In this document: positions 50,741-64,000 of the stretch, piece by piece
Layout: every line of letters starts with the position of its first letter
Numbering within the stretch: the first letter of the stretch is position 1
Virus record (IMG/VR): IMGVR_UViG_3300028025_004880
Length of the DNA stretch: 64,000 nucleotides
Strand: one strand, 5' to 3'
Source: a virus
Taxonomy: Duplodnaviria > Heunggongvirae > Uroviricota > Caudoviricetes
Made by a program: the position numbers and the translations under genes
The notes under the pieces: model-generated
Database searches by the model: none
What the model was told of the DNA's origin: nothing
The model's input: the letters and a program-made list of their open reading frames with translations, nothing else

Positions 50741-51274
50741 ATGACACAAAGCACTTATGGTACTGTACCAGACAATGTAAACTTCTTAAGTCCCAATGGA
50801 TTTAGATTTGAAATAAACAAATTACCAGATCTAACATTTTTCGCGCAAGAGGTAAACTTGCCTGGACTATCGCTAGGCGAGCCAGAGTTCGGCACACCTT
50901 TCGCACGTGTTCCAGTTCCTGGCGAAACACTCACGTATGATGCCTTTGAAATACGCTTTATTGTTGATGAAGAGATGGCAAATTATAAAGCCGTATATAA
51001 TTGGATGGTTGCATTAGGATTCCCTGAGTCATATACACAATATGTTAATTTGATTGATGAAGCGCAAATCGCAGCCATCAGTGAACTCGCTGCAAATTAT
51101 TCTGACGCACAGTTACAAATTTTATCAAACGTAAATACACCGAATCAAAGTGTTCAATTCTATGATTGTTTTCCAATAGCACTATCTTCTGTTGTGTTCC
51201 AATCAACAAACTCAGATGTGCCTTACGTAGTTGCAAATGCAACATTTAAATTCTCATATTACAAGTTCTTGTAA
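50741..51274 (+). CDS. tube-fold paralogue (177 aa), probably the gp3-position tail completion/sheath-stabiliser protein
   Basis: PNGFRFEINKLPDLTFFAQEVNLPGLSLGEPEFGTPFARVPVPGETLTYDAFEIRFIVDEEMANYKAVYNWM aligns to gp19 PNQFRVELSFPSYVTAGIIAGTRAQFLCKAAQLPAATIEDIPVQYRGRAVHVAGERTFAPWSVTIIND. Marine T4-likes carry g3 right after g23. Confidence 0.5.
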   Translation: MTQSTYGTVPDNVNFLSPNGFRFEINKLPDLTFFAQEVNLPGLSLGEPEFGTPFARVPVPGETLTYDAFEIRFIVDEEMANYKAVYNWMVALGFPESYTQYVNLIDEAQIAAISELAANYSDAQLQILSNVNTPNQSVQFYDCFPIALSSVVFQSTNSDVPYVVANATFKFSYYKFL

Positions 51275-51277
51275 TAC

Positions 51278-51306
51278 TTTACAATAATTGACTTTTCAGG
51301 TATAAT
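51278..51306 (+). promoter_or_regulatory. sigma70-type promoter (TTTACA-17-TATAAT) upstream of uvsY
   Basis: TTTACA at 51278-51283, 17-nt spacer, TATAAT at 51301-51306. GGAG RBS and ATG at 51331. Confidence 0.5.
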
Positions 51307-51330
51307 GGATATACCTATGGAGATTTTACT

Positions 51331-51768
51331 ATGAATATTGAACAGTTACAAGAGATGTGGGGTGTGGATTGTCAGATAGATGATGATCGACTGGACAAAG
51401 AAGCTGTCCGTACTCCCAACCTTCACTCTAAATACCTAAACATTCTAATCGCGAACAAGTTAAAACTTGCCAAAGTGAAGGCAGATTACAACACACTTAG
51501 ACAAGCAAAGTTTCGATACTATCGTGGCGAGATGGGTAAACAAGAATTAATCGAATTTGGGTGGGAACAATGGCAAGGTGCCAAACCATTGAAGAATGAG
51601 ATGGATGAGTTTCTATCAGGCGACCCTGACTTGAATAAAGAATTTATGAAAGTTGAGTATCTGTCAGCAATCATAACATTCAGTGAATCAATACTTGGGC
51701 AAATAAAATCAAGAGACTTTCAAATTAAAGGTGCTATTGATTGGAAGAAGTTTATTAGTGGTGCTTAA
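51331..51768 (+). CDS. uvsY: recombination mediator UvsY
   Basis: MNIEQLQEMW...SILGQIKSRDFQIKGAIDWKKFISGA aligns to T4 UvsY MRLEDLQEEL...GALDAIKSRGFAIKHIQDMRAFEAGK. 145 aa vs 137 aa. Confidence 0.85.
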   Translation: MNIEQLQEMWGVDCQIDDDRLDKEAVRTPNLHSKYLNILIANKLKLAKVKADYNTLRQAKFRYYRGEMGKQELIEFGWEQWQGAKPLKNEMDEFLSGDPDLNKEFMKVEYLSAIITFSESILGQIKSRDFQIKGAIDWKKFISGA

Positions 51769-53252
51769 TGAAATTAAAAATTGAGAAGATTGATCATGTT
51801 TATGTAAGAGTTCTTTCAGAAGATGAAGGAATCTTATATGAACTCTCTGAGTTCTTTACCTATGAGTATCCAGGAGCAAGGTTTACGCCACAATATCGTG
51901 CTAAACTTTGGGATGGGAAAGTGCGCATGTATGATATTATGCGTAAGACTCTATACGTGGGCTTAGTAAAATATGTTGAAAGTTTTGCTCTAGAACGTGG
52001 ATATGAACTGGAGTTTGTCAATCAAGTAATTACTCACACTGATGTCGATATCGATACAGTTTCTAAGTTTGCTGAATGGCTAACGCCAATGGGTCATGGT
52101 AACCCTATTGAGATTAGAGATTATCAACTGGAAGCAGTACATAAAGCAATACATGATGAGCGTACATTATTGCTATCACCAACGGCATCTGGAAAATCTT
52201 TTATCATTTATACTACCATGAGGTGGCATTTAAATGAAGGCAGAAAACAAATTATCATTGTTCCAACTACATCTTTAGTTGAGCAACTTTACACTGACTT
52301 TGCCGACTACTCATCTGCTAATGGATGGAGAGTTGATAAACATTGCCAGAAACTTTATTCTGGTTTCCCAAAAGAATTTACCTCAGACGTATTGATCACT
52401 ACTTGGCAATCTATCTACAAACAGCCAAAGAGTTGGTTTCAACAATTCGATGTAATCTATGGTGACGAAGCGCACCAATTCAAAGCAAAATCCTTAACTA
52501 CTATAATGGAAAAACTTACTGATGTAAGATATAGGATTGGAACAACTGGAACATTAGATAATAAGAAAGTCCATAAATTAGTCTTAGAAGGTATATTTGG
52601 TCCAGTACATCGTGTAACTACAACCAAAGCATTAATGGACAGTCAGAGACTGGCAAACCTAAATATTACGTGTATCTTGTTGAAGTACGATGACATAACA
52701 AGACAAGGTCGAAAGAACAATCAATATCAAGATGAAATAGACTTTATCGTTTCACATACTAAGCGAAACAATTTTATTGCAAATATAGCATTAAAGTCAA
52801 CAGGGAACACCTTAGTATTGTTTCAGTTTGTTGAGAAGCATGGAAAGTTGTTATATGATCTCATTAAGGAAAAGGCGCACTCTGAAAGAAAAATATTTTT
52901 CGTTTATGGTGGCACTGAAACAACTGATCGTGAAGCGATTAGACATATTACCGAAGGTGAAACAGACGCTATTATTATCGCATCCTTTGGGACTTTTTCG
53001 ACTGGTATTAACATACCTTCATTGGAAAATGTTATCTTCGCTTCGCCATCTAAAAGTAAAATAAGAAACCTGCAAAGTATTGGTCGTGGTTTGAGGTTGA
53101 AAGATGGTAAGACGTCTTGTAATTTATATGATATCGCTGACGACCTTTCATGGAAGTCATGGAAGAATCATACATTGCACCACTTTGCTGAAAGAGTAAA
53201 AATATATTCTGAGGAGAAATTTGATTACAAATTAATAGAGGTTAAGATATGA
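51768..53252 (+). CDS. uvsW: UvsW RNA-DNA / DNA helicase (SF2, DEAH)
   Basis: Walker A SPTASGKSF at about 52168-52200, DEAH box YGDEAHQF, helicase C-terminal motifs (QSIGRGLR). Canonical uvsY-uvsW synteny. ATGA overlap with uvsY. Confidence 0.8.
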   Translation: MKLKIEKIDHVYVRVLSEDEGILYELSEFFTYEYPGARFTPQYRAKLWDGKVRMYDIMRKTLYVGLVKYVESFALERGYELEFVNQVITHTDVDIDTVSKFAEWLTPMGHGNPIEIRDYQLEAVHKAIHDERTLLLSPTASGKSFIIYTTMRWHLNEGRKQIIIVPTTSLVEQLYTDFADYSSANGWRVDKHCQKLYSGFPKEFTSDVLITTWQSIYKQPKSWFQQFDVIYGDEAHQFKAKSLTTIMEKLTDVRYRIGTTGTLDNKKVHKLVLEGIFGPVHRVTTTKALMDSQRLANLNITCILLKYDDITRQGRKNNQYQDEIDFIVSHTKRNNFIANIALKSTGNTLVLFQFVEKHGKLLYDLIKEKAHSERKIFFVYGGTETTDREAIRHITEGETDAIIIASFGTFSTGINIPSLENVIFASPSKSKIRNLQSIGRGLRLKDGKTSCNLYDIADDLSWKSWKNHTLHHFAERVKIYSEEKFDYKLIEVKI

Positions 53253-53647
53253 CCACAGAACAAGAAGAAAAATTTGTATTTTTAAAGTTGTATAATGGCG
53301 AACAAGTTATGGCTGAAAAGATATTCGAAAATAATGAACTCATAACAGTTGAGTCTCCATTTTTAATACGCTTGATACCTAGACTTGAACCACAGGGGTT
53401 GGTTGAGCAAATTACGTCGGGTCCATATTGCCAATTTACAGAAGATAAATCGTTTACCTTCTTAAAGAAAGATTTGTTGTTTTCCAAACCACTGCACTCT
53501 TTTATGATTCCCGTCTATAAGAAAATGTCGTTAGATCATGATGGCGATCAAGAGGCGATACATTTTCGGGGGAAACAAGAGGAAGAGATAGAAGAAGATC
53601 CAGATGATCAGTTAATAGTTATGAACTCTAATGATACATTACATTAA
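53249..53647 (+). CDS. hypothetical protein (132 aa), acidic C-terminus (uvsW.1 position)
   Basis: ORF overlapping the uvsW stop by ATGA. Confidence 0.45.
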   Translation: MTTEQEEKFVFLKLYNGEQVMAEKIFENNELITVESPFLIRLIPRLEPQGLVEQITSGPYCQFTEDKSFTFLKKDLLFSKPLHSFMIPVYKKMSLDHDGDQEAIHFRGKQEEEIEEDPDDQLIVMNSNDTLH

Positions 53648-53787
53648 CCTTATCAACCCTAACACAGTTAGTATACCTCGTGTCAAGTATGGAAGCAAAT
53701 ATATTAGTTTGTAACATAAATTTGCTTTTAAGTTTATATTATAATATAATGATTGTAGTTAGAAAATGAACCAAGGATGAATATGAT

Positions 53788-54321
53788 ATGGCAACACACT
53801 ACGTAAATAACGCTGAACTGCTACAGGCATTGATTGCATGGAAGGCGCAAATTGCAGAAGCGCAGGCAGCAGGAACTACTGAGCCAAGGATCCCTGAGTA
53901 TGTTGGAAAATGCATACTACAGATTGCGACTCGGTTGTCGTATAAACCAAACTTCTTAAATTATACATATCGTGAAGAGATGATTAGTGATGGGATAGAA
54001 AATTGTATACAATATGTTCGAAACTTTGACCCCACAAAATCTTCTAATCCTTTCGCCTATTTTACACAGATTATATGGTATGCTTTTTTACGAAGGATTC
54101 AAAAAGAAAAGAAGCAAAACTATGTGAAGCAAAAAATGATTCAAGAAATGCCCTTTGAATCGTTTGAACTGCAAGAGCATGATGGAGATGGCATATATAA
54201 TAATGCGTATGTTGATTATTTACAGATGAACAACAATACAGAACAATTACCAACAAAACCGAAGAAATCTAAAAAGCGTTCAACGCTAGAGGACTTCACT
54301 GAAGGAGAACTAAATGGCTAA
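53788..54321 (+). CDS. gp55: late-transcription sigma factor gp55
   Basis: YVNNAELLQALIAWKAQI...ISDGIENCIQYVRNFDPTKSSNPFAYFTQIIWYAFLRRIQKEKKQ aligns to T4 gp55 YVNNKELLQAIIDWKTEL...[45 protein letters not shown]. Confidence 0.9.
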   Translation: MATHYVNNAELLQALIAWKAQIAEAQAAGTTEPRIPEYVGKCILQIATRLSYKPNFLNYTYREEMISDGIENCIQYVRNFDPTKSSNPFAYFTQIIWYAFLRRIQKEKKQNYVKQKMIQEMPFESFELQEHDGDGIYNNAYVDYLQMNNNTEQLPTKPKKSKKRSTLEDFTEGELNG

Positions 54322-54508
54322 GACTAAAACATATAAAATTTATCACAATGGTGCATTTGTTCCATGTACATACCTAAAAGATTCAGAGACTATGGGTCGT
54401 GCTTGGATCGAGTATGATCACGTTGAAGATGACGAAGAAGGTGTACCTAAAGAAGCTGTAAAGCGCACTTTACATGTAGAGATTTCGGAACTACAAATTA
54501 CTGAATAA
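54314..54508 (+). CDS. small acidic protein (64 aa)
   Basis: ORF overlapping the gp55 stop; AGGAGAACTAAATGG RBS. Confidence 0.4.
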   Translation: MAKTKTYKIYHNGAFVPCTYLKDSETMGRAWIEYDHVEDDEEGVPKEAVKRTLHVEISELQITE

Positions 54509-54525
54509 TTAGGTAGGTTTATATT

Positions 54526-55599
54526 ATGAAGACTGCGATTATAACCGATCAGCATTTCGGCGCACGTAATGACTCATTGGTTTTTCTATCTTACTATGAG
54601 AAGTTTTATAATGATGTGTTCTTTCCTAAGTTAAAAGAGGAAGGCATCACAACATTACTAATCCTTGGTGATACATTTGATCGCCGTAAGTATGTAAATT
54701 TCTTCACACTCAAGAAAACAAAGCAGATGTTTTTTGATAGGTTGGAAGAAATGGGCATAACTGTTTATATGCTTGCAGGCAATCATGACACTTACTTTAA
54801 AAACACCAATGATGTAAACTCAGTTGACTTATTATTAGCTGAATACACTAATGTCAATGTTATCGATACACCACAAACTATCCACTTAGATTACGGCAAC
54901 ACTGCTGCTGATGTTTGCATGGTTCCTTGGATTTGTGCCGATAACTATGAAAGAGCAATAGATGAGATGACTAACACAAGCGCACATTTGTGTATGGGTC
55001 ACTTTGAGATTGCTGGATTTGCTATGTATCGTGGTATGGAAAGTCATGAAGGTCTAGATCCGTCTCTCTTTAAAAAGTTCGACAAGACTTTCAGCGGACA
55101 TTACCATCACCGCAGTAGTAAAGATAATATCACTTATCTAGGAAACCCATATGAACTTACATGGCAGGATTACAACGATCCTCGTGGTTTCCATATTTTT
55201 GATGTAAACAGTCAAGAATTGACATTCATTCAAAACCCCTATACTATGTTCGATCGTTATGAATATGATGACAGCACTACAGAAGCAGAAACACTTGACG
55301 TAAGTAGATTCGCTGAAAAGTTTGTCAAGATTATTGTTGTAAACAAAGCAGACTTTTACAAGTTTGACAAATTCCTCTCAAGAGTATATACTAATAATCC
55401 TCCACCGTATGAAGTAAAAATTATTGAAGATTTTTCTGCTTTTAACGAAGGAGAAGTATCTTCTGAAATTAATCTTGAAGATACGCAAACAGTATTAAGC
55501 GAATACATCGATTCAATTGAAACTGATCTTGACAAAGAAAAAATCAAAACCTTTGTCAAAACACTTTATACGGAAGCAATTAATATAGAGGTGGTATAA
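54526..55599 (+). CDS. gp47: recombination endonuclease subunit gp47 (Mre11/SbcD-like)
   Basis: Calcineurin-like phosphoesterase motifs: ITDQHFG (D-x-H), LGDTFDRR (GD-x-x-D), AGNHD (GNHD), GHFE (GH). Confidence 0.85.
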   Translation: MKTAIITDQHFGARNDSLVFLSYYEKFYNDVFFPKLKEEGITTLLILGDTFDRRKYVNFFTLKKTKQMFFDRLEEMGITVYMLAGNHDTYFKNTNDVNSVDLLLAEYTNVNVIDTPQTIHLDYGNTAADVCMVPWICADNYERAIDEMTNTSAHLCMGHFEIAGFAMYRGMESHEGLDPSLFKKFDKTFSGHYHHRSSKDNITYLGNPYELTWQDYNDPRGFHIFDVNSQELTFIQNPYTMFDRYEYDDSTTEAETLDVSRFAEKFVKIIVVNKADFYKFDKFLSRVYTNNPPPYEVKIIEDFSAFNEGEVSSEINLEDTQTVLSEYIDSIETDLDKEKIKTFVKTLYTEAINIEVV

Positions 55600-55889
55600 T
55601 GCGACAACTTGAGATTCAGTATTTTTATCCTTTGACGGAACAGATTCCACTTGAGTTAGATTATACTGAATGCGTCAAACCTAAAATGTGGACTACCATT
55701 GATTCAGGATTGACGTTGACACTATCTAATAGTGTTGTTGGAACAGTGGGTATGTCAAATAATCTTGGTAACCCATCCTTTACTATTAATGTTGATGCTA
55801 CACCGATTACTATTGTGTCAAAAAAGAAACCCAACTTTGTGAAGAAATTCATTTATAAATCGTTGGGTATGAAATGGAAGAGTGAATGA
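55599..55889 (+). CDS. hypothetical protein (96 aa) between gp47 and gp46
   Basis: ORF coupled to its neighbours by ATAATG and ATGA overlaps. Confidence 0.4.
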   Translation: MRQLEIQYFYPLTEQIPLELDYTECVKPKMWTTIDSGLTLTLSNSVVGTVGMSNNLGNPSFTINVDATPITIVSKKKPNFVKKFIYKSLGMKWKSE

Positions 55890-57598
55890 TTTTACTAAAA
55901 AGCGTACAGTGGAAAAACTTCTTATCAACTGGTAACTCCGAAAATAAAGTCCTATTAAACAGATCGCCTTCAACATTGATTGTTGGAAAAAATGGCGAAG
56001 GTAAATCTACTATACTTGATGCCCTGTGTTTTGGTCTTTTCGGTAAACCATTTCGTAATGTAAATAAGAACCAATTAATCAACAGTATAAATTTAAAAAA
56101 CACTGTTGTTGAAATTGAGTTTAGCGTTGGATCAACTGAGTATAAAATAATTCGTGGTATCAAACCAAATATCTTTGAGATCTATCAAGCATCTACTTTA
56201 CTCAATCAAGACTCTGCATCAAAAGATTATCAAAAAATCCTTGAACAGCAGATCCTAAAATTAAACTATAAAACATTCACTCAAGTAGTCATATTGGGGA
56301 GCGCATCGTTTGTTCCTTTTATGCAACTACCATCGACACAGCGCAAGGATGTGATTGAAGATATTTTGGATATTCGTATCTTCTCAACAATGAACACGCT
56401 ACTAAAAGACAAAGCATCTAAATCTAAGATGGAGTTGATAAACGTAGATAGTGCTATCGCAAAATCAAGAGTGGAAGTTGAGTCTCAACAGAAACTCATT
56501 AAGACGCTGGTTCAGTCTAAACAAGAATATCTGTTGTCAGTGCAACAAAAGATTACATCTAACAATGATCAGATAGCCAAGATTTCTTTAGATATCAGCG
56601 CAACAAATGAAAAGATCAAAACTCTTCGCGATAGCATAGCTGATTGTACTCAGGTTGAAGAAGGTATCGAAAAGTTGCTCAATTCTTTGAATAGAAAAAA
56701 AGAAAAGAACTCTGAGATTGTTACAAACATAGACTTCTTTGAGAGCAATGATAATTGTCCATCATGCGCACAAAATATACCGCATGAGCATAAGCAATCT
56801 ATCGTTGAAACTATGCGTAACGAAACCCAAAACAATAAAGAATTTATTGAGAAAGTGGATACTGCTCTTTCTGGGATGCGCCAACGTATGGCTGAGATCA
56901 AAAAAGTTCAAGATGAAATTATGAAACTTACAACTGAGGTTTCTTCATTCAACTCATCGATTACCTTGTTAAACACACAGAACTCATCATACCAAACCGA
57001 GATAACAGGTGCCAACGAAAACACATCAAACATCGATGAGGAAAAGACTAAGTTAAAACAACTTGCTTCCACAGCACTTGAAAACATAGAGTTGAAAACA
57101 GCCATCTTAGAACAAAGAAATCTAGAAGAAGTTGCAGCAACATTGTTGAAAGACACTGGTATTAAAACTGCAATCATTCGTGAGTATTTACCTGCGATGA
57201 ATAAGATGATCAACATGTATTTACAAGCGATGGACTTCTTTGTGCACTTTGAACTTGATGAATCCTTTAATGAAATTATCAAGTCACGCTATCGCGATGA
57301 GTTTACCTATGCAAGTTTCTCTGAAGGTGAGAAAATGCGTATCGATCTTGCGATCTTATTCACTTGGCGCCAAATCGCTAAGATGAAGAACTCTGTCAAC
57401 ACAAACTTACTTGTGCTTGATGAGATCTTCGATTCATCCCTTGACGCATCGGGAACTGACTACTTCCTCAATGTCATGACACATCTGGGCGAAAACACCA
57501 ACACTTTCGTCATCAGCCACAAAGGCGACCAGCTCTTCGATAAATTCCGTAACGTAATCAAATTCGAAAAACGAAACGACTTCTCAGTTATCGTTTGA
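55886..57598 (+). CDS. gp46: recombination endonuclease subunit gp46 (Rad50/SbcC-like ABC ATPase)
   Basis: N-terminal Walker A LIVGKNGEGKSTILDALCFGLFG, a central coiled-coil with a CPSC zinc hook (NDNCPSCAQN), C-terminal signature FSEGEKMRIDLAILF and Walker B/D-loop LLVLDEIFDSSLD. Confidence 0.9.
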   Translation: MILLKSVQWKNFLSTGNSENKVLLNRSPSTLIVGKNGEGKSTILDALCFGLFGKPFRNVNKNQLINSINLKNTVVEIEFSVGSTEYKIIRGIKPNIFEIYQASTLLNQDSASKDYQKILEQQILKLNYKTFTQVVILGSASFVPFMQLPSTQRKDVIEDILDIRIFSTMNTLLKDKASKSKMELINVDSAIAKSRVEVESQQKLIKTLVQSKQEYLLSVQQKITSNNDQIAKISLDISATNEKIKTLRDSIADCTQVEEGIEKLLNSLNRKKEKNSEIVTNIDFFESNDNCPSCAQNIPHEHKQSIVETMRNETQNNKEFIEKVDTALSGMRQRMAEIKKVQDEIMKLTTEVSSFNSSITLLNTQNSSYQTEITGANENTSNIDEEKTKLKQLASTALENIELKTAILEQRNLEEVAATLLKDTGIKTAIIREYLPAMNKMINMYLQAMDFFVHFELDESFNEIIKSRYRDEFTYASFSEGEKMRIDLAILFTWRQIAKMKNSVNTNLLVLDEIFDSSLDASGTDYFLNVMTHLGENTNTFVISHKGDQLFDKFRNVIKFEKRNDFSVIV

Positions 57599-57623
57599 CA
57601 TTAATTTGGAAATAAGGTATAAT
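57595..57623 (+). promoter_or_regulatory. sigma70-type early promoter cassette P1 (TTGACA-17-TATAAT)
   Basis: TTGACA at 57595-57600 overlapping the gp46 stop codon, 17-nt spacer TTAATTTGGAAATAAGG, TATAAT at 57618-57623. GGAG RBS and ATG at 57646. Confidence 0.65.
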
Positions 57624-57645
57624 TGTCTTTTCAATGGAGATAACT

Positions 57646-57792
57646 ATGCCTATTTTTGAGACCGACTTAGATTATATAGAATTCTTAGACTTCTTAGCTA
57701 CCCTCTCGGTAGAGGGGGAAACCTTTGAAATTTGTCTTAATGCTCTAAAACTTCAAACAGCGCTACAAGAGTGTTACGGTAAACCCCTATGA
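57646..57792 (+). CDS. small early protein (48 aa)
   Basis: ATG with a GGAG RBS 7 nt upstream, directly downstream of P1. Translation MPIFETDLDYIEFLDFLATLSVEGETFEICLNALKLQTALQECYGKPL. Followed by an 8-bp GC hairpin (AACCCCTA...TAGGGGTT, 57782-57803). Below the 60-aa track threshold. Confidence 0.35.
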   Translation: MPIFETDLDYIEFLDFLATLSVEGETFEICLNALKLQTALQECYGKPL

Positions 57793-57838
57793 TCTTAGGG
57801 GTTAAAATCCCCTTTAAAATCAACGACTTACAAAGTGC

Positions 57839-57867
57839 TTTACTTTAATTCAGCTTTCATGTATAAT
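57839..57867 (+). promoter_or_regulatory. sigma70-type early promoter cassette P2 (TTTACT-17-TATAAT)
   Basis: AAGTGCTTTACTTTAATTC shares the AAGTGCTTgACtTTAATT core of P4/P6. TATAAT at 57862-57867. AGGAG RBS and ATG at 57894. Confidence 0.5.
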
Positions 57868-57893
57868 TATGTTATATTATGAAGGAGTTGACT

Positions 57894-58055
57894 ATGAATG
57901 AGCAATGGGAGTCTTTTACTGACAACGAACTGTATATCCTCTGTTTTGGATATGGTATTGAATCTGAGTGCGTTATGCTTGGATCTCGTCTGATGAATCG
58001 CGGACACGTAGAACTTGTGTTGACGAACTTCGAACGTGATTTGGCTTTCGCTTGA
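57894..58055 (+). CDS. small early protein (53 aa)
   Basis: AGGAG RBS then ATG. MNEQWESFTDNELYILCFGYGIESECVMLGSRLMNRGHVELVLTNFERDLAFA. Its stop codon is embedded in the -35 of the next promoter. Confidence 0.35.
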   Translation: MNEQWESFTDNELYILCFGYGIESECVMLGSRLMNRGHVELVLTNFERDLAFA

Positions 58056-58080
58056 CATTAATTCAAGGATCAGGTATAAT
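58052..58080 (+). promoter_or_regulatory. sigma70-type early promoter cassette P3 (TTGACA-17-TATAAT)
   Basis: TTGACA at 58052-58057, spacer TTAATTCAAGGATCAGG, TATAAT at 58075-58080. Near-identical to P6 (61889..). ATG at 58087 is only 7 nt downstream, so the mRNA may be leaderless. Confidence 0.65.
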
Positions 58081-58086
58081 TATATT

Positions 58087-60354
58087 ATGAATACACACTT
58101 TAACTCAAAAGACCTATTGGCAAAACTTCTTGCCACCGAAAACCTTACGGTGCTTCGGGCACCTGTTCGTACCGCATGTTTTGACGTCGAGTCAAGAACA
58201 TTGACGCTACCGCAATGGAAAGAAATGTCCAATGAGGTGGAAGAAATGCTCATCGGTCATGAGGTAGGACATGCCTTGTTTACAACTAATGAGTACATCA
58301 AAGCCGAAACCTATACACGTTCTTTTCATGGTTACATGAATGTTTGTGAAGATGTTCGCATTGAAAAGAAAATTAAAAACAAGTATCCAGGTCTCCGTCG
58401 CACCTTTATCCAAGGATACAAAGAACTCAACGAAAAAGATTTCTTTGACATCGCAGGTAAAGACCTCACCAAAATTTTATTGATCGATAAAATAAATCTA
58501 TATTTTAAATGTGGCATCAACTGTGGTGTTCGTTTTACACCTGCTGAAATGGATCTAGTCCGTAAGGTTGAGCGCACAGATACCATGGCTGATGTTTATG
58601 ATATCGCCAACGAAATCTATACCTACGAAAAGGGTGAGCGCAAAAAGCGTCGCCAAGAAATGCGTGAAGCACGCAAACTTCTTAACTTGGATGCTGAAGA
58701 TGCCAAGGAAGAACAAGAAGAACTAGAGGAAATGCTCAATCAAGAATATGATGATGAAGCACTTGACGATGATGAATTAGATGACTATGATGAGGGCGAC
58801 ACCTCAGAAGAATCTAGCGATTCTGATTCTGAAGAATCATCTGCAACTCCTCCGTCTTCAGCAGGTGATCCATGGCTCGACAAAGATGAAGAGAAAAAAG
58901 AACCAGAAATAACTGAAGACGATGAAATTAAGTCACACACTGATGACGCATTTTATCGCAGAGTTGAAGAATATGCTGACACAGATACGGAAGTCCATAT
59001 CTATGAACCCAAGATTTTTGATAACATCTATACTGATACAGTTATTGGATACAAACGTGTTATCGCAGAACTATCGGCAGGTCGTGTTCAACGTGATATT
59101 CGCTACTATACTTCAGCTGAAGGTGTTTTTGATAAAGCAAGCCAAGCAAAGGCACTCGCCAGACACAATTCAAATGTTGAGAAATATAAATCAGAAAATT
59201 CTCGTGTTGTGAATTATCTTGTAAAAGAGTTTGAAATGCGTAAATCTGCCACTCAATATAAGAGAACGCAGACAGCGAAGATCGGACAATTGAATACAAG
59301 CAAACTTGCAGTTTACCAACTCACCGATGACCTATTCCGTCGCATACAAATTGTGCCTGATGCTAAAAATCACGGTATGATGTTTTTGCTTGACTGGTCA
59401 GGTTCTATGATGGAATGTATCGAAGATACTCTGAAGCAAGTTATCAGTCTTGCTACTTTCTGTCAACGTGCCATGATCCCATATCAAGTATTCGCATTCT
59501 CAAACGACTATGAAACTTCTTCACGTAGAGATCGCAAATTCTACTCTAGGGAAGAAGTCAAAGCGATGGGTGCGGGAAGACAGTTTATTGCTTGTGGTGG
59601 TTTTAACTTGATCGAGTTGTTTAGCAACAAGATGACAACAAGCGAATTTAATCAGCAAGTTTCTCTCATGCTTGACTCACCATGGCATCTAGATAGGAAC
59701 TATGGACTAGGTGCTACGCCATTGAACGAAGCATTATTGTATATGATTGAAACACAAATCAGCAAGTTTATGCGTGCGAATAATGTTGAAAAATTCTCGT
59801 TCATTACATTGACAGATGGTCAAGGTAGTGGCTTACAAACTGCGGATCGCGAACATCTCTATGACTCACGCTACGACTACGATACACATAAAAACATAAA
59901 AGTTAAAAACTACATGCGTGATCCAATCACTCATCGTGAGTATGCTCTTACTCGCCACAATAACACATCTGTTCTTTTACAAATTATTAAAGACAGATAT
60001 AATTGCTCAGTTGTTGGCTTCCACGTGTTGAGGAATAGCAAACGAAATGTTCAACAATTCCTTGACGATAATGTGTTTTCGGGTAATGAGTCATCTTCAG
60101 ATTGGGCACGGAAACATATTATGATGGATGAGATTCGTGTTGATTTGCGCAAAGAAGGTTTCTACAGTCTTACTGAAACTTCTCATGATGAACTATTCCT
60201 CATCTCCCAAACTAAACTCTCAATCGATGAGGGCGAACTTGAAGTCAAAGACAATATGAACTCCAAAGCGATTGCAAAGCAGTTTGAGAAGTATATGAAT
60301 GTGAAGAAAACCAGTCGTATCCTGTTGAACCGATTTGTGGGGTTGGTGGCTTAA
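58087..60354 (+). CDS. HExxH metallopeptidase-like N-domain + acidic linker + C-terminal von Willebrand factor A (vWA) domain protein. Resembles the DUF2201-type vWA partner of MoxR ATPases and is CobT-like in role
   Basis: HEVGH zincin motif at 58258-58272. Asp/Glu/Ser-rich low-complexity tract at about 58650-58960. vWA MIDAS motif LLDWSGSM (D-x-S-x-S) at 59388-59408. The track ORF from 58036 starts with TTG inside the upstream gene; the ATG at 58087 follows promoter P3. A MoxR-type AAA+ gene lies one gene downstream. Confidence 0.7.
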   Translation: MNTHFNSKDLLAKLLATENLTVLRAPVRTACFDVESRTLTLPQWKEMSNEVEEMLIGHEVGHALFTTNEYIKAETYTRSFHGYMNVCEDVRIEKKIKNKYPGLRRTFIQGYKELNEKDFFDIAGKDLTKILLIDKINLYFKCGINCGVRFTPAEMDLVRKVERTDTMADVYDIANEIYTYEKGERKKRRQEMREARKLLNLDAEDAKEEQEELEEMLNQEYDDEALDDDELDDYDEGDTSEESSDSDSEESSATPPSSAGDPWLDKDEEKKEPEITEDDEIKSHTDDAFYRRVEEYADTDTEVHIYEPKIFDNIYTDTVIGYKRVIAELSAGRVQRDIRYYTSAEGVFDKASQAKALARHNSNVEKYKSENSRVVNYLVKEFEMRKSATQYKRTQTAKIGQLNTSKLAVYQLTDDLFRRIQIVPDAKNHGMMFLLDWSGSMMECIEDTLKQVISLATFCQRAMIPYQVFAFSNDYETSSRRDRKFYSREEVKAMGAGRQFIACGGFNLIELFSNKMTTSEFNQQVSLMLDSPWHLDRNYGLGATPLNEALLYMIETQISKFMRANNVEKFSFITLTDGQGSGLQTADREHLYDSRYDYDTHKNIKVKNYMRDPITHREYALTRHNNTSVLLQIIKDRYNCSVVGFHVLRNSKRNVQQFLDDNVFSGNESSSDWARKHIMMDEIRVDLRKEGFYSLTETSHDELFLISQTKLSIDEGELEVKDNMNSKAIAKQFEKYMNVKKTSRILLNRFVGLVA

Positions 60355-60386
60355 TTAAACCCCTACTGTTGGTAGGGTTATTGATT
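60355..60386 (+). terminator. hairpin / probable intrinsic terminator after the vWA gene
   Basis: CCCTAC-TGTTG-GTAGGG (6-bp GC stem) followed by TTATTGATT, immediately before promoter P4. Confidence 0.4.
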
Positions 60387-60393
60387 AAAGTGC

Positions 60394-60422
60394 TTGACTT
60401 TAATTTGGAAATAAGATATAAT
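60394..60422 (+). promoter_or_regulatory. sigma70-type early promoter cassette P4 (TTGACT-17-TATAAT)
   Basis: AAAGTGCTTGACTTTAATTTGGAAATAAGATATAAT is near-identical to P1 over about 30 nt. TATAAT at 60417-60422. ATG at 60455. Confidence 0.65.
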
Positions 60423-60454
60423 AGTCTTATGATAATTGAAAGGGAATTTATATT

Positions 60455-60661
60455 ATGTTAGCATATTGCGATTACATGGCAAAAGTCATTAATGAGTCTT
60501 TGAAAAAAGACGCCCATGTCTACGGAACTTTCGTGGATTCAGTGGGTAAAATAAATTGGGATCTTGGTGAGAATGGTGAATTCCTTTCTACGAAGAAAAC
60601 GATGACTGTCGTTGACAGAAATGGGAAAAATTATATTGTAACTGTCCAAGAAATGATTTGA
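60455..60661 (+). CDS. small early protein (68 aa)
   Basis: ORF downstream of P4 with an AGGGA RBS. Its stop codon lies inside the -35 of P5. Confidence 0.5.
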   Translation: MLAYCDYMAKVINESLKKDAHVYGTFVDSVGKINWDLGENGEFLSTKKTMTVVDRNGKNYIVTVQEMI

Positions 60662-60686
60662 CATTAATTCTTGTATGGGGTATAAT
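60658..60686 (+). promoter_or_regulatory. sigma70-type early promoter cassette P5 (TTGACA-17-TATAAT)
   Basis: TTGACA at 60658-60663, spacer TTAATTCTTGTATGGGG, TATAAT at 60681-60686. GGAG RBS and ATG at 60720. Confidence 0.65.
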
Positions 60687-60719
60687 TTATATATGTGTTC
60701 TTTATTATGAATGGAGTGA

Positions 60720-61892
60720 ATGATGGCTAAAATTACTGAAGCCCAAATGATCGAGTTTGAAAATAAACTCAAGGAGATGTTTCCCGATGTCGCAACCAAC
60801 GGCACTGTCTCACGGAAAGAACTAATGGCTGTTCGTGATGAAGTTGGTGTTACATGGTATCCGACATGGTTGATGCAAACACAACTAAGTCGTGGTCTAT
60901 ATGCGATTCCTGGTGGATCTATTACAGCACCTGTAACAGACATTAGCAAATGGGATGCGCCTATTAAACAAAAGACGGAGTCTTACGTGGTTGATTTTAC
61001 AAATACTGATTCGTTAATCCCAAAGATCGACGGGAACTATGTTCCTTTCGGTAACCACAAAGATCTTGAACAAATTTGCGCAGCCAAGATATTCTATCCT
61101 GCATATATCTCAGGTCCAACTGGGAATGGCAAATCAACAACGATTGAACAAATTTGCGCCAAGCAAAGACGTGCGCTTATTCGTATCAACTTGAACACCA
61201 TGACTGATGAAGATCAGCTTATCGGAACTAAGACCCTCTTGAATGGCAACGTGGAGATTGTTGAAGGACCAGTGCTAATCGCTATGCGTACAGGATCTGT
61301 ATTGCTACTAGACGAGATTGACGCTGGCTCAGCAAACACTCTGTTGTGCCTACAACCAATTCTTGAGGGCAAACCCTATTACTTCAAACTTAAGAATGAA
61401 ATGATCATCCCTGCTCCTGGATTCACTGTGTTCGCTACGGCAAACACAAAGGGTAAGGGTAGCGATGATGGTCGTTACATCGGTACAAACGTCCTCAACG
61501 AAGCGTTTTTAGAGCGATTTGCGGTTACTTTCAACCAAGAGTACCCTGATGCAAAGGTCGAAAAACGGATCATTATGAACCTCATGAAGACTTACAATGC
61601 GGTTGATGAGGACTTTGCCGATAACATGGTCAAGTGGGCAGACGCTATCCGTCGCACCTTTGACGCTGGTGGCGTAGATGAAACTATCACTACACGTCGC
61701 CTCATCCATATCGTTCGTGCCTTCTCTATTTTCAAGACCCCAAAGAAGGCTATTGAACTCTGTACAAACCGATTTGACGACTCTACAAGGATCGCCTTCA
61801 ACGATTTGTTCGATAAGGTTTCAAGTGGTGAGTTGCAAGTTGAGGAAACACCTCCACAGGCGACCCCAGTGGAGCCTGTTGCAAGTGCTTGA
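60720..61892 (+). CDS. cobS: MoxR-family AAA+ ATPase (CobS-like) with an extra N-terminal domain of about 70 aa
   Basis: Walker A ISGPTGNGKSTT at about 61112-61140. Walker B VLLLDEIDAG at about 61291-61320. ...FATANTKG sensor region. Single AAA+ module of MoxR/CobS size (390 aa). Adjacent to a vWA protein. Confidence 0.85.
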   Translation: MMAKITEAQMIEFENKLKEMFPDVATNGTVSRKELMAVRDEVGVTWYPTWLMQTQLSRGLYAIPGGSITAPVTDISKWDAPIKQKTESYVVDFTNTDSLIPKIDGNYVPFGNHKDLEQICAAKIFYPAYISGPTGNGKSTTIEQICAKQRRALIRINLNTMTDEDQLIGTKTLLNGNVEIVEGPVLIAMRTGSVLLLDEIDAGSANTLLCLQPILEGKPYYFKLKNEMIIPAPGFTVFATANTKGKGSDDGRYIGTNVLNEAFLERFAVTFNQEYPDAKVEKRIIMNLMKTYNAVDEDFADNMVKWADAIRRTFDAGGVDETITTRRLIHIVRAFSIFKTPKKAIELCTNRFDDSTRIAFNDLFDKVSSGELQVEETPPQATPVEPVASA

Positions 61893-61917
61893 CTTTAATT
61901 CAAAAATCAGGTATAAT
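61889..61917 (+). promoter_or_regulatory. sigma70-type early promoter cassette P6 (TTGACT-17-TATAAT)
   Basis: CAAGTGCTTGACTTTAATTCAAAAATCAGGTATAATTATAT is a near-copy of P3. The -35 overlaps the MoxR stop codon. AGGAG RBS and ATG at 61965. Confidence 0.65.
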
Positions 61918-61964
61918 TATATGGTAGTCTTGAAAAACACACTTAACACACAGGAGTTTATATT

Positions 61965-62318
61965 ATGTTGAAATACAGTGATCTTACAAAAGGGCAAAAG
62001 CGTTGTATCGATGCGTTCATCGCTCGTCGTCCCGAACTAGCTACAGCTGACACAATGACCACCAAGGAAGTTTACAACCTTTGGAACGAGATTTATGCTC
62101 AGCGTGGTCAAGGTGGCGCCAAAGTTGGTTACCCAAATTGGCTTCCGAAATACAATCAAGTACAACGTGGCTTGGTTTACTTTCCAGGTCCAAACTCTAC
62201 AGGCGAAAAGTCTGCGCTTGAGAAGTCTAAACTTCAAAAGATTATCAATGACAGTGAGTCAACAGTCAGCGATGATGAGTTCGAAGCAGAGTTGCGAGCA
62301 AACGGAATTCAAGTTTAA
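61965..62318 (+). CDS. hypothetical early protein (117 aa) carrying a copy of the domain found at the N-terminus of the MoxR ATPase
   Basis: TKEVYNLWNEI...KVGYPNWLPKYNQVQRGLVYFPGP matches SRKELMAVRDEV-GVTWYPTWLMQTQLSRGLYAIPGG at 60812-60920. Confidence 0.55.
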   Translation: MLKYSDLTKGQKRCIDAFIARRPELATADTMTTKEVYNLWNEIYAQRGQGGAKVGYPNWLPKYNQVQRGLVYFPGPNSTGEKSALEKSKLQKIINDSESTVSDDEFEAELRANGIQV

Positions 62319-62333
62319 TACTTGAGTCTTTGT

Positions 62334-62369
62334 GGGGATGATAACTGCCATCGTCATCCCCATTTTTTT
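62334..62369 (+). terminator. rho-independent terminator
   Basis: GGGGATGA-(12-nt loop)-TCATCCCC followed by ATTTTTTT. Directly after the 61965 gene stop. Confidence 0.7.
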
Positions 62370-62383
62370 GAAGATGGCGTTAT

Positions 62384-62656
62384 ATGGAGTATTTAAACAT
62401 GTCTAAAAAAGATCTTCTTTTGAAACATCTACAAGCTGGCAAAGCATTTACTGCGAAGCAAATTACTGCTTCTTTCGGTATCGCTAACCCTGCTCGTCAC
62501 GTGCAAGTTTTGCGCGAACAAGGTTACTGTGTATACAGCAACCCTTCTAAGTTGAGCAACGGATCTGTTGCTACCAAGTATCGTATCGGCACACCAAGTC
62601 GCCGTATCGTTGCTTTGGCACAACAAATCGTTGGGGCGACTGCCTTTACACGATAA
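62384..62656 (+). CDS. small DNA-binding protein with a helix-turn-helix / winged-helix motif (90 aa; start possibly at 62399)
   Basis: LLLKHLQAGKAFTAKQITASFGIANPARHVQVLREQGYCV has the helix-turn-helix pattern (hydrophobic helix, G, recognition helix). GGAG lies 9 nt upstream of the internal ATG at 62399. The gene is bracketed by two terminators. Confidence 0.5.
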   Translation: MEYLNMSKKDLLLKHLQAGKAFTAKQITASFGIANPARHVQVLREQGYCVYSNPSKLSNGSVATKYRIGTPSRRIVALAQQIVGATAFTR

Positions 62657-62666
62657 GTGTAATACA

Positions 62667-62700
62667 ACTGAGCATTCTTCCGAGTGCTCAGTTTTGTTTT
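62667..62700 (+). terminator. rho-independent terminator
   Basis: ACTGAGCATTC-TTCC-GAGTGCTCAGT (stem about 12 bp with one wobble) followed by TTTGTTTT. Confidence 0.7.
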
Positions 62701-62717
62701 CATTTGGAGTAGTATAA

Positions 62718-62936
62718 TTGCTTTCATTACGATGGATTACCACATGGCTGTATATACTTGGGGGTTCGCTTTTAATCTTACTTGATACACCAATATGGAT
62801 ATGGGCATTTTTGAGCGCACATTTTATACTACTTTTCCTATCGATTAATATGCGTGATGTTAGATTGAAGATACAATACACTTTTCTAGTAGTTGTAGAC
62901 TTCTTTGTTATTGTCCACTTGTTTATTTTGAGGTGA
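62718..62936 (+). CDS. small hydrophobic membrane protein (72 aa), TTG start
   Basis: Two predicted transmembrane stretches (ITTWLYILGGSLLILL; IWIWAFLSAHFILLFLSI). GGAG RBS 8 nt upstream of the TTG. No in-frame ATG. Confidence 0.35.
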   Translation: MLSLRWITTWLYILGGSLLILLDTPIWIWAFLSAHFILLFLSINMRDVRLKIQYTFLVVVDFFVIVHLFILR

Positions 62937-62940
62937 CGTC

Positions 62941-63273
62941 TTGAACGATAAAGTTAAATTATCACAAACAGCTACTACGGGTGGCAGAAAATTTGATGGT
63001 GGTAAGCTACAATATGGCTTACTACCTCCACTTGCTCTAAAGGCAACTGTAGAGATTCTAACATTTGGTGCGGAGAAATACGAACCAGATAATTGGAAAC
63101 ATGTTCCAGATTCTAAGCGTAGGTACTTTGATGCTATGCAAAGACATCTATGGGCATGGAAAGAGGGCGAGCAAAATGATCCCGAAACTGGGAAGAACCA
63201 TTTGGCTCACGCAATGTGTTGTTTGATGTTTCTATATGAGCATGATATAAAATATAGTTTGGAGAAGAAATGA
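62941..63273 (+). CDS. conserved phage protein (110 aa), TTG start; resembles the N-terminal domain of phage dATP/dGTP-diphosphohydrolase-like proteins (uncertain)
   Basis: GGRKFDGGKLQYGLLPPLALKATVEILTFGAEKYEPDNWKHV is a motif I associate with a phage DUF family (K..D.GK...L.P......A.VL.FGA.KY...NW). GAGGTGA RBS before the TTG. Confidence 0.4.
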   Translation: MNDKVKLSQTATTGGRKFDGGKLQYGLLPPLALKATVEILTFGAEKYEPDNWKHVPDSKRRYFDAMQRHLWAWKEGEQNDPETGKNHLAHAMCCLMFLYEHDIKYSLEKK

Positions 63274-63446
63274 TTAAAATCGTAGCAGTTTTTCTTTTTG
63301 TGTTTGCTCTTTTCTACTTTGGTATCGAAGCATTTAATCGAAAGACCAATGTTGAGAAATGGGATGTCGCTAAAACATTCTCTTACAGTTTAGCATTGGC
63401 GCTGGCTGTTGTTGTATTTCTTGTTAGTATCGTTGTTTTATTTTAA
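63270..63446 (+). CDS. small membrane protein (58 aa)
   Basis: ATGA overlap with the upstream stop. MIKIVAVFLFVFALFYFGIEAF...LALALAVVVFLVSIVVLF gives two transmembrane helices. Below the track threshold. Confidence 0.35.
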   Translation: MIKIVAVFLFVFALFYFGIEAFNRKTNVEKWDVAKTFSYSLALALAVVVFLVSIVVLF

Positions 63447-63455
63447 GGATTTTAA

Positions 63456-64000
63456 ATGAAAAAAGTTTTTACACTTTCTATCTTGGCTGCTGCTATTCTT
63501 GCCAGTGGGTGTACTCGTATTGAGACAGGCGAAGTTGGTTTGCGTCGTGGCTTCGACAAGCAAGTTAAGACAGAAGAATTGCTTCCTGGCTCATTCAACC
63601 AAGTTATCATTGGTGAAGTTTTGACTTTCCCAGTGAAAGAAATCTCTGTCAAGGTTGAAGACATGACTCCATTGGCTAAAGATAACAGCACAATGAAAGA
63701 CTTCGACACATTGGTTACGTATAACATTAATCAAGCGCAGGTCGCCGAGATTTATAATGCCAAGAATCGTAGCTTCCATGCTATTCATAATGGTGATGTT
63801 TACTTGATGTATAACTATATCTTCAATGCTTCACGTAATGCCATCTACAAAGCTGCACGTAAGTATGAAGCATTAGAAATGGGCGATGCTCGTCAAGCCA
63901 TGGAAACTGAAATTAAAGAACAGATTATTAAAACATTGGCTGATGAAAAGCTGGATGGAACCATTGTTATCGGACAGGTTCTAATCCGCAATATCGTGCC
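63456..64000 (+). CDS. lipoprotein with an SPFH (Band-7 / HflK-HflC / prohibitin-like) domain; C-terminus beyond the window end
   Basis: Signal peptide and lipobox MKKVFTLSILAAAILASGC. SPFH-type N-terminal signature TRIETGEVGLRRGFDKQV...LLPGSFNQVIIGEVLTFPVKE, then coiled-coil-like KYEALEMGDARQAMETEIKEQI. ORF is open to position 64000. Confidence 0.6.
   Translation, partial: MKKVFTLSILAAAILASGCTRIETGEVGLRRGFDKQVKTEELLPGSFNQVIIGEVLTFPVKEISVKVEDMTPLAKDNSTMKDFDTLVTYNINQAQVAEIYNAKNRSFHAIHNGDVYLMYNYIFNASRNAIYKAARKYEALEMGDARQAMETEIKEQIIKTLADEKLDGTIVIGQVLIRNIV

What the first reader, a model, noticed from the sequence alone, without database searches (positions are those of the whole stretch)
57595..61917. 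Family of near-identical 35-bp early promoter cassettes whose -35 hexamers overlap the upstream stop codons
Seen in sequence: six TTGACA/TTGACT/TTTACT - 17 nt - TATAAT promoters at 57595, 57839, 58052, 60394, 60658 and 61889, plus TTTACA-17-TATAAT at 51278 before uvsY. They fall into two subfamilies that are almost copies of each other. P1 ~ P4 is TTGAC(A/T)TTAATTTGGAAATAAG(G/A)TATAAT. P3 ~ P6 is (A/C)GTGCTTGAC(A/T)TTAATTCAA(GG/AA)ATCAGGTATAATTATAT. All share TTAATT immediately 3' of the -35 and, in P2/P4/P6, AAGTGCTT 5' of it. In four cases the TGA stop of the upstream gene is the TGA of TTGACA/TTGACT. Inference: these are host-RNAP early promoters in the T4 style, spread by duplication. The conserved TTAATT spacer element may be a recognition site for a phage or host factor.
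Basis: seen in the sequence. Interest (0 to 1): 0.5.

Follow-up and report, generated by a model that had tools for sequence, protein, structure and literature searches.

The report
T4-type early promoter cassettes, reshuffled
The six near-identical 29-bp boxes are real and are most likely host-polymerase early promoters of an uncultured T4-like phage; some carry an upstream stem-loop, and they also serve as recombination joints where small genes are inserted, deleted or moved, a behaviour already known from T4-type phages as PeSL cassettes.

Summary
TTKACW-N17-TATAAT occurs exactly 7 times in 64 kb, always on the gene strand (0.14 expected). Six sites carry TTAATT directly after the -35 hexamer. 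Four -35 hexamers contain the TGA stop of the upstream gene.

The window is an uncultured T4-like myovirus. In 80 related metagenomic loci the same sites recur at orthologous positions. The clade consensus is: A-rich (-44..-37), y, TTGACW, TTWATT, ..., T-17 G-16 nn G-13, TATAAT. TTAATT is therefore a position-locked, clade-wide element.

P2 and P4 follow a conserved CCCTAC-loop-GTAGGG stem-loop. Stem-loop, promoter and leader together form a composite cassette like the PeSLs of RB49/phi1, T4/PST and KVP40/nt-1. Strain-level relatives (97.5-99% nt identity) carry an extra 55-aa ORF flanked by two direct copies of this 88-bp cassette, where the window has one copy. The ORF58 module, with its stop-overlapping promoter, lies before CobT in some lineages and before CobS in others.

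Verdict: a new member of a known kind. Early timing and any TTAATT-binding factor remain untested. Interest is modest.

The parts
51278..51306 (+). P0: TTTACA-ATAATT...-TATAAT promoter, 25 nt before uvsY (51331)
   Evidence: ATAATT is the third commonest variant of the post -35 block in relatives.
53722..53750 (+). Candidate extra family member before gp55: TTGCTT-TTAAGT...-TATAAT
   Evidence: Also present in the strain-level relatives L202 and L203. TTGCTT is one of the -35 variants seen with this motif in relatives.
57595..57623 (+). P1: TTGACA TTAATT TGGAAATAAGG TATAAT. Its TGA is the stop of the gp46-like gene. It drives ORF52 (57646-57792).
   Evidence: No upstream stem-loop. ORF52 has no homolog in the 80 relatives.
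57782..57803 (+). Stem-loop 1 (AACCCCTA-loop-TAGGGGTT). The ORF52 stop TGA lies in the loop.
   Evidence: -12.7 kcal/mol, z -1.8; same stem family as in relatives.
57839..57867 (+). P2: AAGTGC TTTACT TTAATT ... TATAAT, 12 nt before ORF58
   Evidence: An orthologous promoter is present in L121-123.
58052..58080 (+). P3: TTGACA TTAATT CAAGGATCAGG TATAAT. Its TGA is the stop of ORF58. The ATG of the CobT-like gene (58087) lies 6 nt after the -10.
   Evidence: Same arrangement in L121-123.
60361..60448 (+). Complete composite cassette: stem-loop CCCTACT-gtt-GGTAGGG (60361-60377), AAGTGC, P4 (60394-60422) and leader up to just before the ATG of ORF68.
   Evidence: -13.0 kcal/mol, z -3.2; terminator-like; this 88-bp unit is present twice in L202/L204, flanking a 55-aa ORF.
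60658..60686 (+). P5: TTGACA TTAATT ... TATAAT. Its TGA is the stop of ORF68. It lies 34 nt before CobS.
   Evidence: An orthologous stop-overlapping promoter is present in L121-123.
61889..61917 (+). P6: AAGTGC TTGACT TTAATT CAAAAATCAGG TATAAT. Its TGA is the stop of CobS. It drives ORF117 (61965).
   Evidence: The orthologous site and a nearly identical leader are present in L122/L123.

Best explanation
These are sigma70-type prereplicative ("early") promoters of an uncultured T4-like myovirus, read by the host RNA polymerase.

Their similarity has two layers.
1. A clade-wide extended consensus. It runs: A-rich block at -44..-37, y at -36, TTGACW/TTTACW, TTWATT at -29..-24, T-17 G-16, G-13, TATAAT. 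This is the local version of the over-specified early promoters of T4.
2. Recent copying. The promoters are the core of short regulatory cassettes: an optional CCCTAC/GTAGGG stem-loop terminator, then the promoter, then a leader with Shine-Dalgarno sequence. These cassettes recombine with each other. The result is that small ORFs are inserted, deleted and relocated, as described for PeSL cassettes.

The stop/-35 overlaps arise because genes are packed against or fused to the cassette. TTGAC supplies an in-frame TGA, with a TAA six bases later in TTAATT.

Shown: the motif, its conservation, the stem-loops, the repeat-flanked indel and the module relocation. Inferred: transcription by host RNAP, early timing, terminator activity and the recombination mechanism.
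For: Motif statistics:
- Counts far exceed chance.
- In 80 relatives (796 kb), 181 of 194 sites lie on the gene strand.

Conserved consensus:
- The logo shows conserved flanks, with G at -13 in 111 of 121 unique sites.
- Anchoring on GTATAAT alone recovers TTG..C at -35 in about 83% of 212 unique sites.
- TTAATT starts exactly 17 nt before TATAAT in 57 unique sites. No other offset exceeds 6, and the opposite strand gives 0-2.

Orthology:
- Promoters sit at orthologous positions, and stop overlaps recur in L121-123, L124, L127, L130 and L132.

Composite cassette:
- Stem-loop CCCTAC-N5-GTAGGG lies 2-49 nt before a promoter in many relatives and in L069.
- In the window the two stem-loops fold at -12.7 and -13.0 kcal/mol.

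Recombination:
- In L202/L204 (97.5-98.7% nt identity to the window) a 55-aa ORF sits between two 83%-identical copies of the cassette, where the window, L203 and L205 have one copy. The two alignments overlap by 88 bp in window coordinates.
- The ORF58 module, with promoters on both sides, lies before CobT in the window, L121 and L137, and between CobT and CobS in L124-L135.

Gene content:
- ORF52 is unique to this lineage, and the small ORFs have no Pfam family.

Literature:
- The PeSL definition and behaviour are given in PMC2839356 and PMC4122927.
- T4 early promoters carry extra consensus beyond the sigma70 elements (PMC2988021, PMC1524935).
- T4's own sites read gGTTTACWtt...ggTATAAT.
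Against: - There are no transcript data, so neither initiation nor timing is shown.
- The host is unknown, so its sigma70 specificity is assumed.
- Four of the six window promoters lack the stem-loop that defines a PeSL.
- Other strain-level replacements nearby have boundaries at start codons without such cassettes, so cassette recombination is not the only route.
- The 83% identity between the two L202 cassette copies means the deletion junction can only be placed in the shared stem-loop region. It cannot be proven.
- P3~P6 similarity is partly just closeness to the clade consensus.
Confidence: 0.75

Rival explanations
1. The TTAATT block at -29..-24 (with TTGnnW) is the binding site of a dedicated protein. 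That protein could be phage-encoded or virion-delivered, acting as an activator or repressor in the manner of MotA at -30. Alternatively it is the preferred target of a modified RNA polymerase. The sites would then be a regulated, phage-specific promoter class rather than plain host promoters.
For: - TTAATT is strictly position-locked.
- It persists where the -35 hexamer degenerates to TTGCCT, TTGTCT or TTGCTT.
- Raw counts show it more often with weak -35 hexamers: TTGYYN 31/63 and TTTACN 10/26, against TTGACN 12/69.
- It recurs in viral contigs of 33-49% G+C, which suggests inheritance with the phage lineage rather than with one host.
- A conserved small winged-helix protein (HTH_39) is encoded just downstream at 62384-62656.
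- There is precedent for a phage factor reading DNA at about -30: MotA (PMC2988021).
Against: - The association with weak -35 hexamers disappears after collapsing sites to orthologous clusters: 10/18 against 1/5, p = 0.32.
- In the window TTAATT accompanies near-perfect TTGACA/TATAAT, which should need no activator.
- Early promoters must fire before any phage protein is made.
- No MotA or AsiA was found among the window proteins that were scanned.
- The first two T's are shared with T4's GTTTACTT, so the block may be an extended -35 or spacer effect on RNAP or DNA shape.
Confidence: 0.15
2. The similarity is only convergent selection for a very strong promoter. There is no copying and no role in recombination. 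Each site evolved in place.
For: - Most of the shared positions are clade consensus.
- In some lineages a promoter seems to have arisen inside the 3' end of the upstream ORF. In L152/153/155 GGAG and TATAAT lie within coding sequence.
- Some nearby replacements do not involve cassettes.
Against: - P1 and P4 share a non-consensus spacer (TGGAAATAAG) and GTCTT downstream. My estimate column frequencies is about 4e-4 per pair by chance.
- The 88-bp repeat in L202 includes a stem-loop and leader that are not promoter parts, and it flanks an indel exactly.
- The ORF58 module, with both promoters, is homologous at two different loci.
Confidence: 0.07
3. The matches are chance, or a compositional artefact of A+T-rich intergenic DNA.
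For: The window has 37.8% G+C, and the generic promoter scan finds many weak matches: 77 against 57 expected.
Against: - 7 exact matches against 0.14 expected, all on one strand.
- 6 against 0.25 expected for the 12-mer.
- The sites are conserved in relatives.
Confidence: 0.01

Closest known systems
PeSL (promoter-early stem-loop) regulatory cassettes of T4-type phages (Arbiol et al. 2010, PMC2839356; Comeau et al. 2014, PMC4122927)
   Same: - Composite unit of stem-loop, A+T-rich stretch, sigma70-like -35/-10 with N17, and Shine-Dalgarno plus ATG.
- The stem sequence is conserved and lineage-specific.
- The units sit between small ORFans next to core genes.
- They occur as direct repeats flanking an ORF that is present in one strain and absent in its close relative.
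- They are associated with relocation of ORF modules.
   Different: - Only 2 of the 6 window promoters (P2, P4) have the stem-loop. The other four are packed against the preceding gene so that the -35 TGA is its stop codon.
- The stem is CCCTAC/GTAGGG. In RB49 it is G(n)-loop-C(n), and in nt-1 it is A3-4G3-loop-C3T3-4.
- There is an extra conserved TTAATT block after the -35.
- Neither terminator activity nor mini-circles were tested here.
- The phage is an uncultured lineage carrying cobS/cobT-like genes.
T4 early promoters (over-specified UP/-35/TGn/-10 promoters; Hinton 2010, PMC2988021; Nolan et al. 2006, PMC1524935)
   Same: - Read by host sigma70 RNAP.
- Near-consensus hexamers with a 17-bp spacer.
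- A-rich block at about -40.
- Conserved bases outside the hexamers, including TT just after the -35 and G/T-rich bases just 5' of -12.
- Placed before early-gene orthologs and novel ORFs.
   Different: - The -36 position is C/T here, not G.
- The -35 is mostly TTGAC rather than GTTTAC.
- The block after the -35 is extended to TTAATT, which the 7 T4 sites examined lack.
- The conserved T-17 G-16 is not the canonical TGn at -15/-14.
- An Alt-type modification of RNAP is unknown for this phage.
T4 middle promoters (MotA box, sigma appropriation)
   Same: P2, P4 and P6 contain TGCTT(T/G)A, which matches the MotA-box core, and a phage-specific conserved element lies near -30.
   Different: The TGCTTKA ends 19 bp before the -10, against 11-13 bp in T4. 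A true -35 is present at the sigma70 spacing. No MotA or AsiA was detected among the window proteins scanned.

Membership tests
sigma70-type -35/-10 promoter | -35 close to TTGACA and -10 close to TATAAT, separated by 17 +/- 1 bp | tested here: met
   three sites match 12/12, three match 11/12 and one matches 10/12. All have a 17-bp spacer.
sigma70-type -35/-10 promoter | Placed upstream of, and co-oriented with, a gene start | tested here: met
   the -10 lies 7-48 nt before a start codon for all seven sites, all on the gene strand. In relatives 181 of 194 sites are on the gene strand.
sigma70-type -35/-10 promoter | Transcription starts about 7 nt after the -10 with host holoenzyme | not testable with these tools
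   Needs 5'-end mapping or in vitro transcription.
T4-type early promoter | Extra conserved positions beyond the hexamers: A-rich block near -40, TT after the -35, G/T-rich bases 5' of -12 | tested here: met
   Searches give the clade logo. One search gives T4 sites for comparison. The literature statements are in PMC2988021 and PMC1524935.
T4-type early promoter | G at -36 (GTTTAC) | tested here: not met
   -36 is C in 81 and T in 78 of 212 sites, and G in only 33. Nolan et al. (PMC1524935) report that this position also varies in RB43 and Aeh1.
T4-type early promoter | Active immediately after infection, before phage protein synthesis | not testable with these tools
   No expression data are available and the host is unknown.
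PeSL cassette | Stem-loop directly upstream of the promoter | tested here: inconclusive
   Met for P2 and P4 (-12.7 and -13.0 kcal/mol). Not met for P1, P3, P5 and P6 (z about 0). Those four overlap the upstream stop instead.
PeSL cassette | Conserved composite including an A+T-rich stretch, promoter, Shine-Dalgarno sequence and ATG, repeated within a genome and across relatives | tested here: met
PeSL cassette | Lies next to ORFans and marks insertions, deletions or replacements between close relatives | tested here: met
   a 55-aa ORF lies between two cassette copies in L202/L204 and is absent from the window, L203 and L205; the ORF58 module is relocated; the small ORFs are ORFans.
PeSL cassette | The stem-loop terminates transcription, and recombination between cassettes yields mini-circles | not testable with these tools
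   These were shown experimentally in Arbiol et al. 2010 (PMC2839356).
T4 middle (MotA-dependent) promoter | MotA box (a/t)(a/t)TGCTT(t/c)A centred at -30, 11-13 bp from the -10, replacing the -35 | tested here: not met
   TGCTT(T/G)A ends 19 bp before TATAAT, and a normal -35 is present. The consensus is taken from PMC1524935 and PMC2988021.

The most novel reading that the evidence does not exclude
TTAATT at -29..-24 is a previously undescribed promoter element of a large, mostly uncultured group of T4-like phages. It would be read either by RNA polymerase itself or by a lineage-specific protein, and it can stand in for a weak -35 (TTGCCT or TTGTCT). The protein could be virion-delivered, or an early one such as the conserved winged-helix protein at 62384-62656. 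Together with the stem-loop, it would mark a mobile promoter unit that brings its own stop codon (TGA...TAA) to whatever ORF it lands behind.
Probability: 0.15. Interest if true: 0.6.

Novelty: new member of a known kind. Interest (0 to 1): 0.3.

Why it matters
It gives a usable early-promoter and cassette model for a widespread uncultured group of T4-like phages: (A-rich)-yTTKACW-TTAATT-N11-TATAAT, often preceded by CCCTAC-loop-GTAGGG. This helps annotate operons and early genes in metagenomic phage genomes.

It also provides a natural-population example of PeSL-type gene gain and loss outside the few cultured phage pairs in which PeSLs were defined.

The position-locked TTAATT block is a concrete target for promoter mutagenesis.

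Tried and rejected
- Megablast of the region against cultured phage genomes gave no match. Only protein-level relatives at about 45% identity exist, among cyanophages and Pelagibacter phage HTVC008M. No annotated close relative could therefore be used.
- Rfam gave no family in 50500-64000.
- MotA-box reading of AAGTGCTTKAC: rejected on spacing, 19 bp against 11-13 bp.
- Hidden stem-loops before P1, P3, P5 and P6: none found.
- TTAATT compensating for weak -35 hexamers: suggestive in raw counts but not significant after collapsing to orthologous clusters, so it is not claimed.
- Stop overlap as a general rule: in relatives only 13 of 83 unique TTGAC promoters use the -35 TGA as a stop. This is enriched over the 2.8% seen for non-promoter TTGAC, but it is a minority.
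- T4 comparison: only the first 50 kb was fetched and only 7 sites had N17, so it is illustrative only. Miller et al. 2003 is not held.
- Literature string search for the 12-mers found no phage paper.
- One tblastn query (the CobS C-terminus) was made in the wrong frame. Only the ORF117-anchored rows of that call were used.


Full report
**1. The observation**

The pattern TTKACW-N17-TATAAT has exactly seven matches in the 64-kb window: 51278, 57595, 57839, 58052, 60394, 60658 and 61889. All are on the + strand. Shuffles give 0.14 expected. Six of the seven carry TTAATT directly after the -35 hexamer. That 12-mer occurs 6 times against 0.25 expected.

Four ORFs end with the TGA inside the -35 hexamer:
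- 55886-57598
- 57879-58055
- 60455-60661
- 60720-61892

P2, P4 and P6 share AAGTGC before the -35.

P1 and P4 share 10 of 11 variable spacer bases, and P3 and P6 share 9 of 11. From the clade's own column frequencies I estimate about 4e-4 per pair for 10 of 11 or better. P1~P4 is therefore more than shared consensus. P3~P6 lies close to the clade consensus spacer, which recurs at unrelated sites in relatives.

**2. Genomic context**

The window is a T4-like myovirus with 37.8% G+C. The relevant genes are as follows:

| Gene | Start or span |
|---|---|
| tail tube | 50741 |
| uvsY | 51331 |
| uvsW-like helicase | 51768 |
| gp55 late sigma | 53788 |
| gp47 | 54526 |
| gp46 | 55886 |
| CobT-like, 755 aa (phrog_459) | 58087-60354 |
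| CobS-like ATPase | 60720-61892 |

The small ORFs between these genes have no Pfam family. T4-type late promoters (TATAAATA) precede structural genes at 48277 and 50708.

No cultured phage is close at the DNA level. The nearest have about 45% CobS identity.

**3. Relatives**

Eighty IMG/VR loci encode CobS at 66-83% identity and share the same gene order. They contain 194 sites of the TTKACN-N17-TANAAT type, 181 of them on the gene strand.

The logo over 121 unique sites shows the following:
- an A/T-rich block upstream
- y at -36
- TTGACW
- T T W A T T
- T at -17 and G/A at -16
- G at -13 in 111 of 121 sites

Anchoring only on GTATAAT gives 212 unique sites, and about 83% of them have TTG/TTT..C at -35. 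Anchoring only on TATAAT, TTAATT starts exactly 17 nt upstream in 57 unique sites. No other offset exceeds 6, and the opposite strand gives 0-2. TTAATT is therefore a position-locked, clade-wide element, not a by-product of copying within this one genome.

TTAATT also follows degenerate -35 hexamers such as TTGCCT, TTGTCT and TTGCTT. Its apparent excess with weak -35 hexamers does not survive collapsing to orthologous clusters.

A scan of IMG/VR with the motif found many other contigs carrying several copies and the same flanks (33-49% G+C). Some copies lie directly after tRNA genes.

T4's own early sites in its first 50 kb read gGTTTACWtt...ggTATAAT. They share the TT after the -35 and the G at -13, but not AATT. 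The literature states that T4 early promoters carry consensus beyond the sigma70 elements (PMC2988021, PMC1524935).

**4. Stem-loops and cassettes**

P2 and P4 are the two window promoters that do not overlap a stop codon. Each follows a G+C stem-loop:
- 57782-57803: -12.7 kcal/mol, z -1.8
- 60361-60377: -13.0 kcal/mol, z -3.2

The other four promoters have no stem-loop.

The stem sequence CCCTAC...GTAGGG, with a variable loop, lies 2-49 nt before a promoter in many relatives. In L069, three such units occur within 1.9 kb of a 174-kb contig.

This composite of stem-loop, A+T-rich stretch, sigma70-like promoter and Shine-Dalgarno/ATG matches the definition of PeSL cassettes. PeSLs were described in RB49/phi1, T4/PST and KVP40/nt-1. 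They are proposed, and partly shown, to mediate ORF shuffling by recombination between copies (PMC2839356, PMC4122927).

**5. Direct evidence for shuffling here**

Contigs encoding an identical CobS protein are 97.5-99% identical to the window at the nucleotide level.

In L202 and L204 a 55-aa ORF (L202 9474-9641) lies between CobT and ORF68. It is flanked by two 83%-identical direct copies of the cassette, at L202 9384-9470 and 9642-9729. Each copy has the stem-loop, a promoter and the leader ...cttatgataattgaaaaggaat...ATG.

The window, L203 and L205 have a single cassette. As a result, the two blastn segments overlap by 88 bp in window coordinates 60361-60448. The upstream copy in L202 has a P3/P6-type spacer and the downstream copy is P4.

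The ORF58 module keeps a promoter on each side, with the downstream one overlapping its stop codon. It lies between gp46 and CobT in the window, L121-123 and L137. In L124-L135 it lies between CobT and CobS, at 72-78% protein identity.

ORF52, which sits between P1 and the P2 cassette, has no homolog in the 80 relatives.

In most lineages the ORF58 homolog ends ...AFGE-TAA-atatatt-ATG and is coupled directly to CobT. In the window and in L121-123 a promoter sits exactly between ...AFA and tatattATG. I read this as insertion of a cassette copy, and that reading is inference.

Not every nearby strain difference involves such cassettes.

**6. Stop overlaps**

The stop codons contained in TTGACWTTAATT (TGA, then TAA six bases later) and in TATAAT (TAA) are all in one reading frame. 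This can be seen directly in the sequence.

In relatives, 13 of 83 unique TTGAC promoters use this TGA to end an ORF of at least 40 codons. The figure for non-promoter TTGAC is 2.8%. The overlaps recur at orthologous genes and travel with the ORF58 module.

The overlap is best explained by tight packing and by genes being joined to cassettes. It does not need a separate function.

**7. Verdict**

These are real, conserved promoter cassettes of a known kind. They are T4-type early promoters, and part of them sit in PeSL-like units. The lineage adds its own TTAATT block after the -35 and its own stem sequence.

Early timing, terminator activity and any TTAATT-binding factor remain untested.

The finding is a new member of a known kind and is of modest interest.

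Noticed in passing
window 57810-57831; also L159, L160, L164, L197, L198 (+ strand) and L129, L191, L195, L200 (opposite strand): A conserved ~22-nt element, CCCTTTAAAATCAAC(G/A)ACTTA(C/G), lies immediately 3' of a CCCTAC/GTAGGG-type stem-loop, in either orientation relative to the genes. It is not a T4 late promoter and has no Rfam match. Its function is unknown.
   Followed up: partly
window 58075-58089: The ATG of the CobT-like gene (58087) lies exactly 6 nt after the P3 TATAAT. The predicted start site is therefore the A of the ATG, and there is no Shine-Dalgarno sequence, so the mRNA may be leaderless. L121-123 (TATAATtatattATG) and L152/153/155 (TATAATtgatctATG) have the same layout. Most other lineages instead couple CobT to the upstream ORF through a GGAG.
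   Followed up: partly
window 57595-61917: The six promoters alternate along the genome between TTGACA-type without AAGTGC (P1, P3, P5) and AAGTGC-TTKACT-type (P2, P4, P6). The near-identical pairs P1~P4 and P3~P6 are never neighbours. With six sites this could be chance (about 0.03).
   Followed up: no
window 63255-64000; L202 12536-13607 against L203 12536-13296: There is a strain-level module replacement just downstream. The window, L202 and L204 have a 58-aa ORF plus a Band_7 protein. L203 and L205 have a Bax1-I protein. Each version has its own TTGACW-N17-TATACT promoter before gp45. In L202 a hairpin (ACCCCCAtttTGGGGGT) lies inside the promoter spacer. In L203 a TATAAAT box follows the promoter.
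   Followed up: partly
window 61918-61964: The leader between P6 and ORF117 (gtagtcttgaaaaacacac(t)taacacacaggagtttatatt) is nearly identical in L122/L123, although CobS is only about 83% identical there and the promoter spacer differs at 5 of 17 positions. The cause could be a constrained 5' UTR or a recent exchange.
   Followed up: no
window 62384-62656: A small winged-helix protein (Pfam HTH_39, 25.6 bits) is conserved at 57-92% identity in the ten relatives compared (L121-L137) and is encoded downstream of P6. It is a candidate early DNA-binding regulator.
   Followed up: no
window 48277 and 50708: T4-type late promoter boxes (TATAAATA) lie 44 and 33 nt before structural genes (48321; tail tube 50741). 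The box at 50708 lies 8 nt after a strong terminator-like hairpin at 50675-50700.
   Followed up: no
L026 3700, L082 798, L100 7757: In other viral contigs the same TTTACWTTAATT-N11-TATAAT promoters sit directly after tRNA 3' ends (...ggttcaagtccc......ggttcgaatcc...).
   Followed up: no
window promoter leaders, for example 57868-57878, 60423-60454, 60687-60719: A recurrent leader motif, TAT(n)TTATGA(A/T)...GAAA...GGAG, follows the -10 in several cassettes and in relatives. The CobT start codon in P3 aligns with the ATG of this leader motif.
   Followed up: partly
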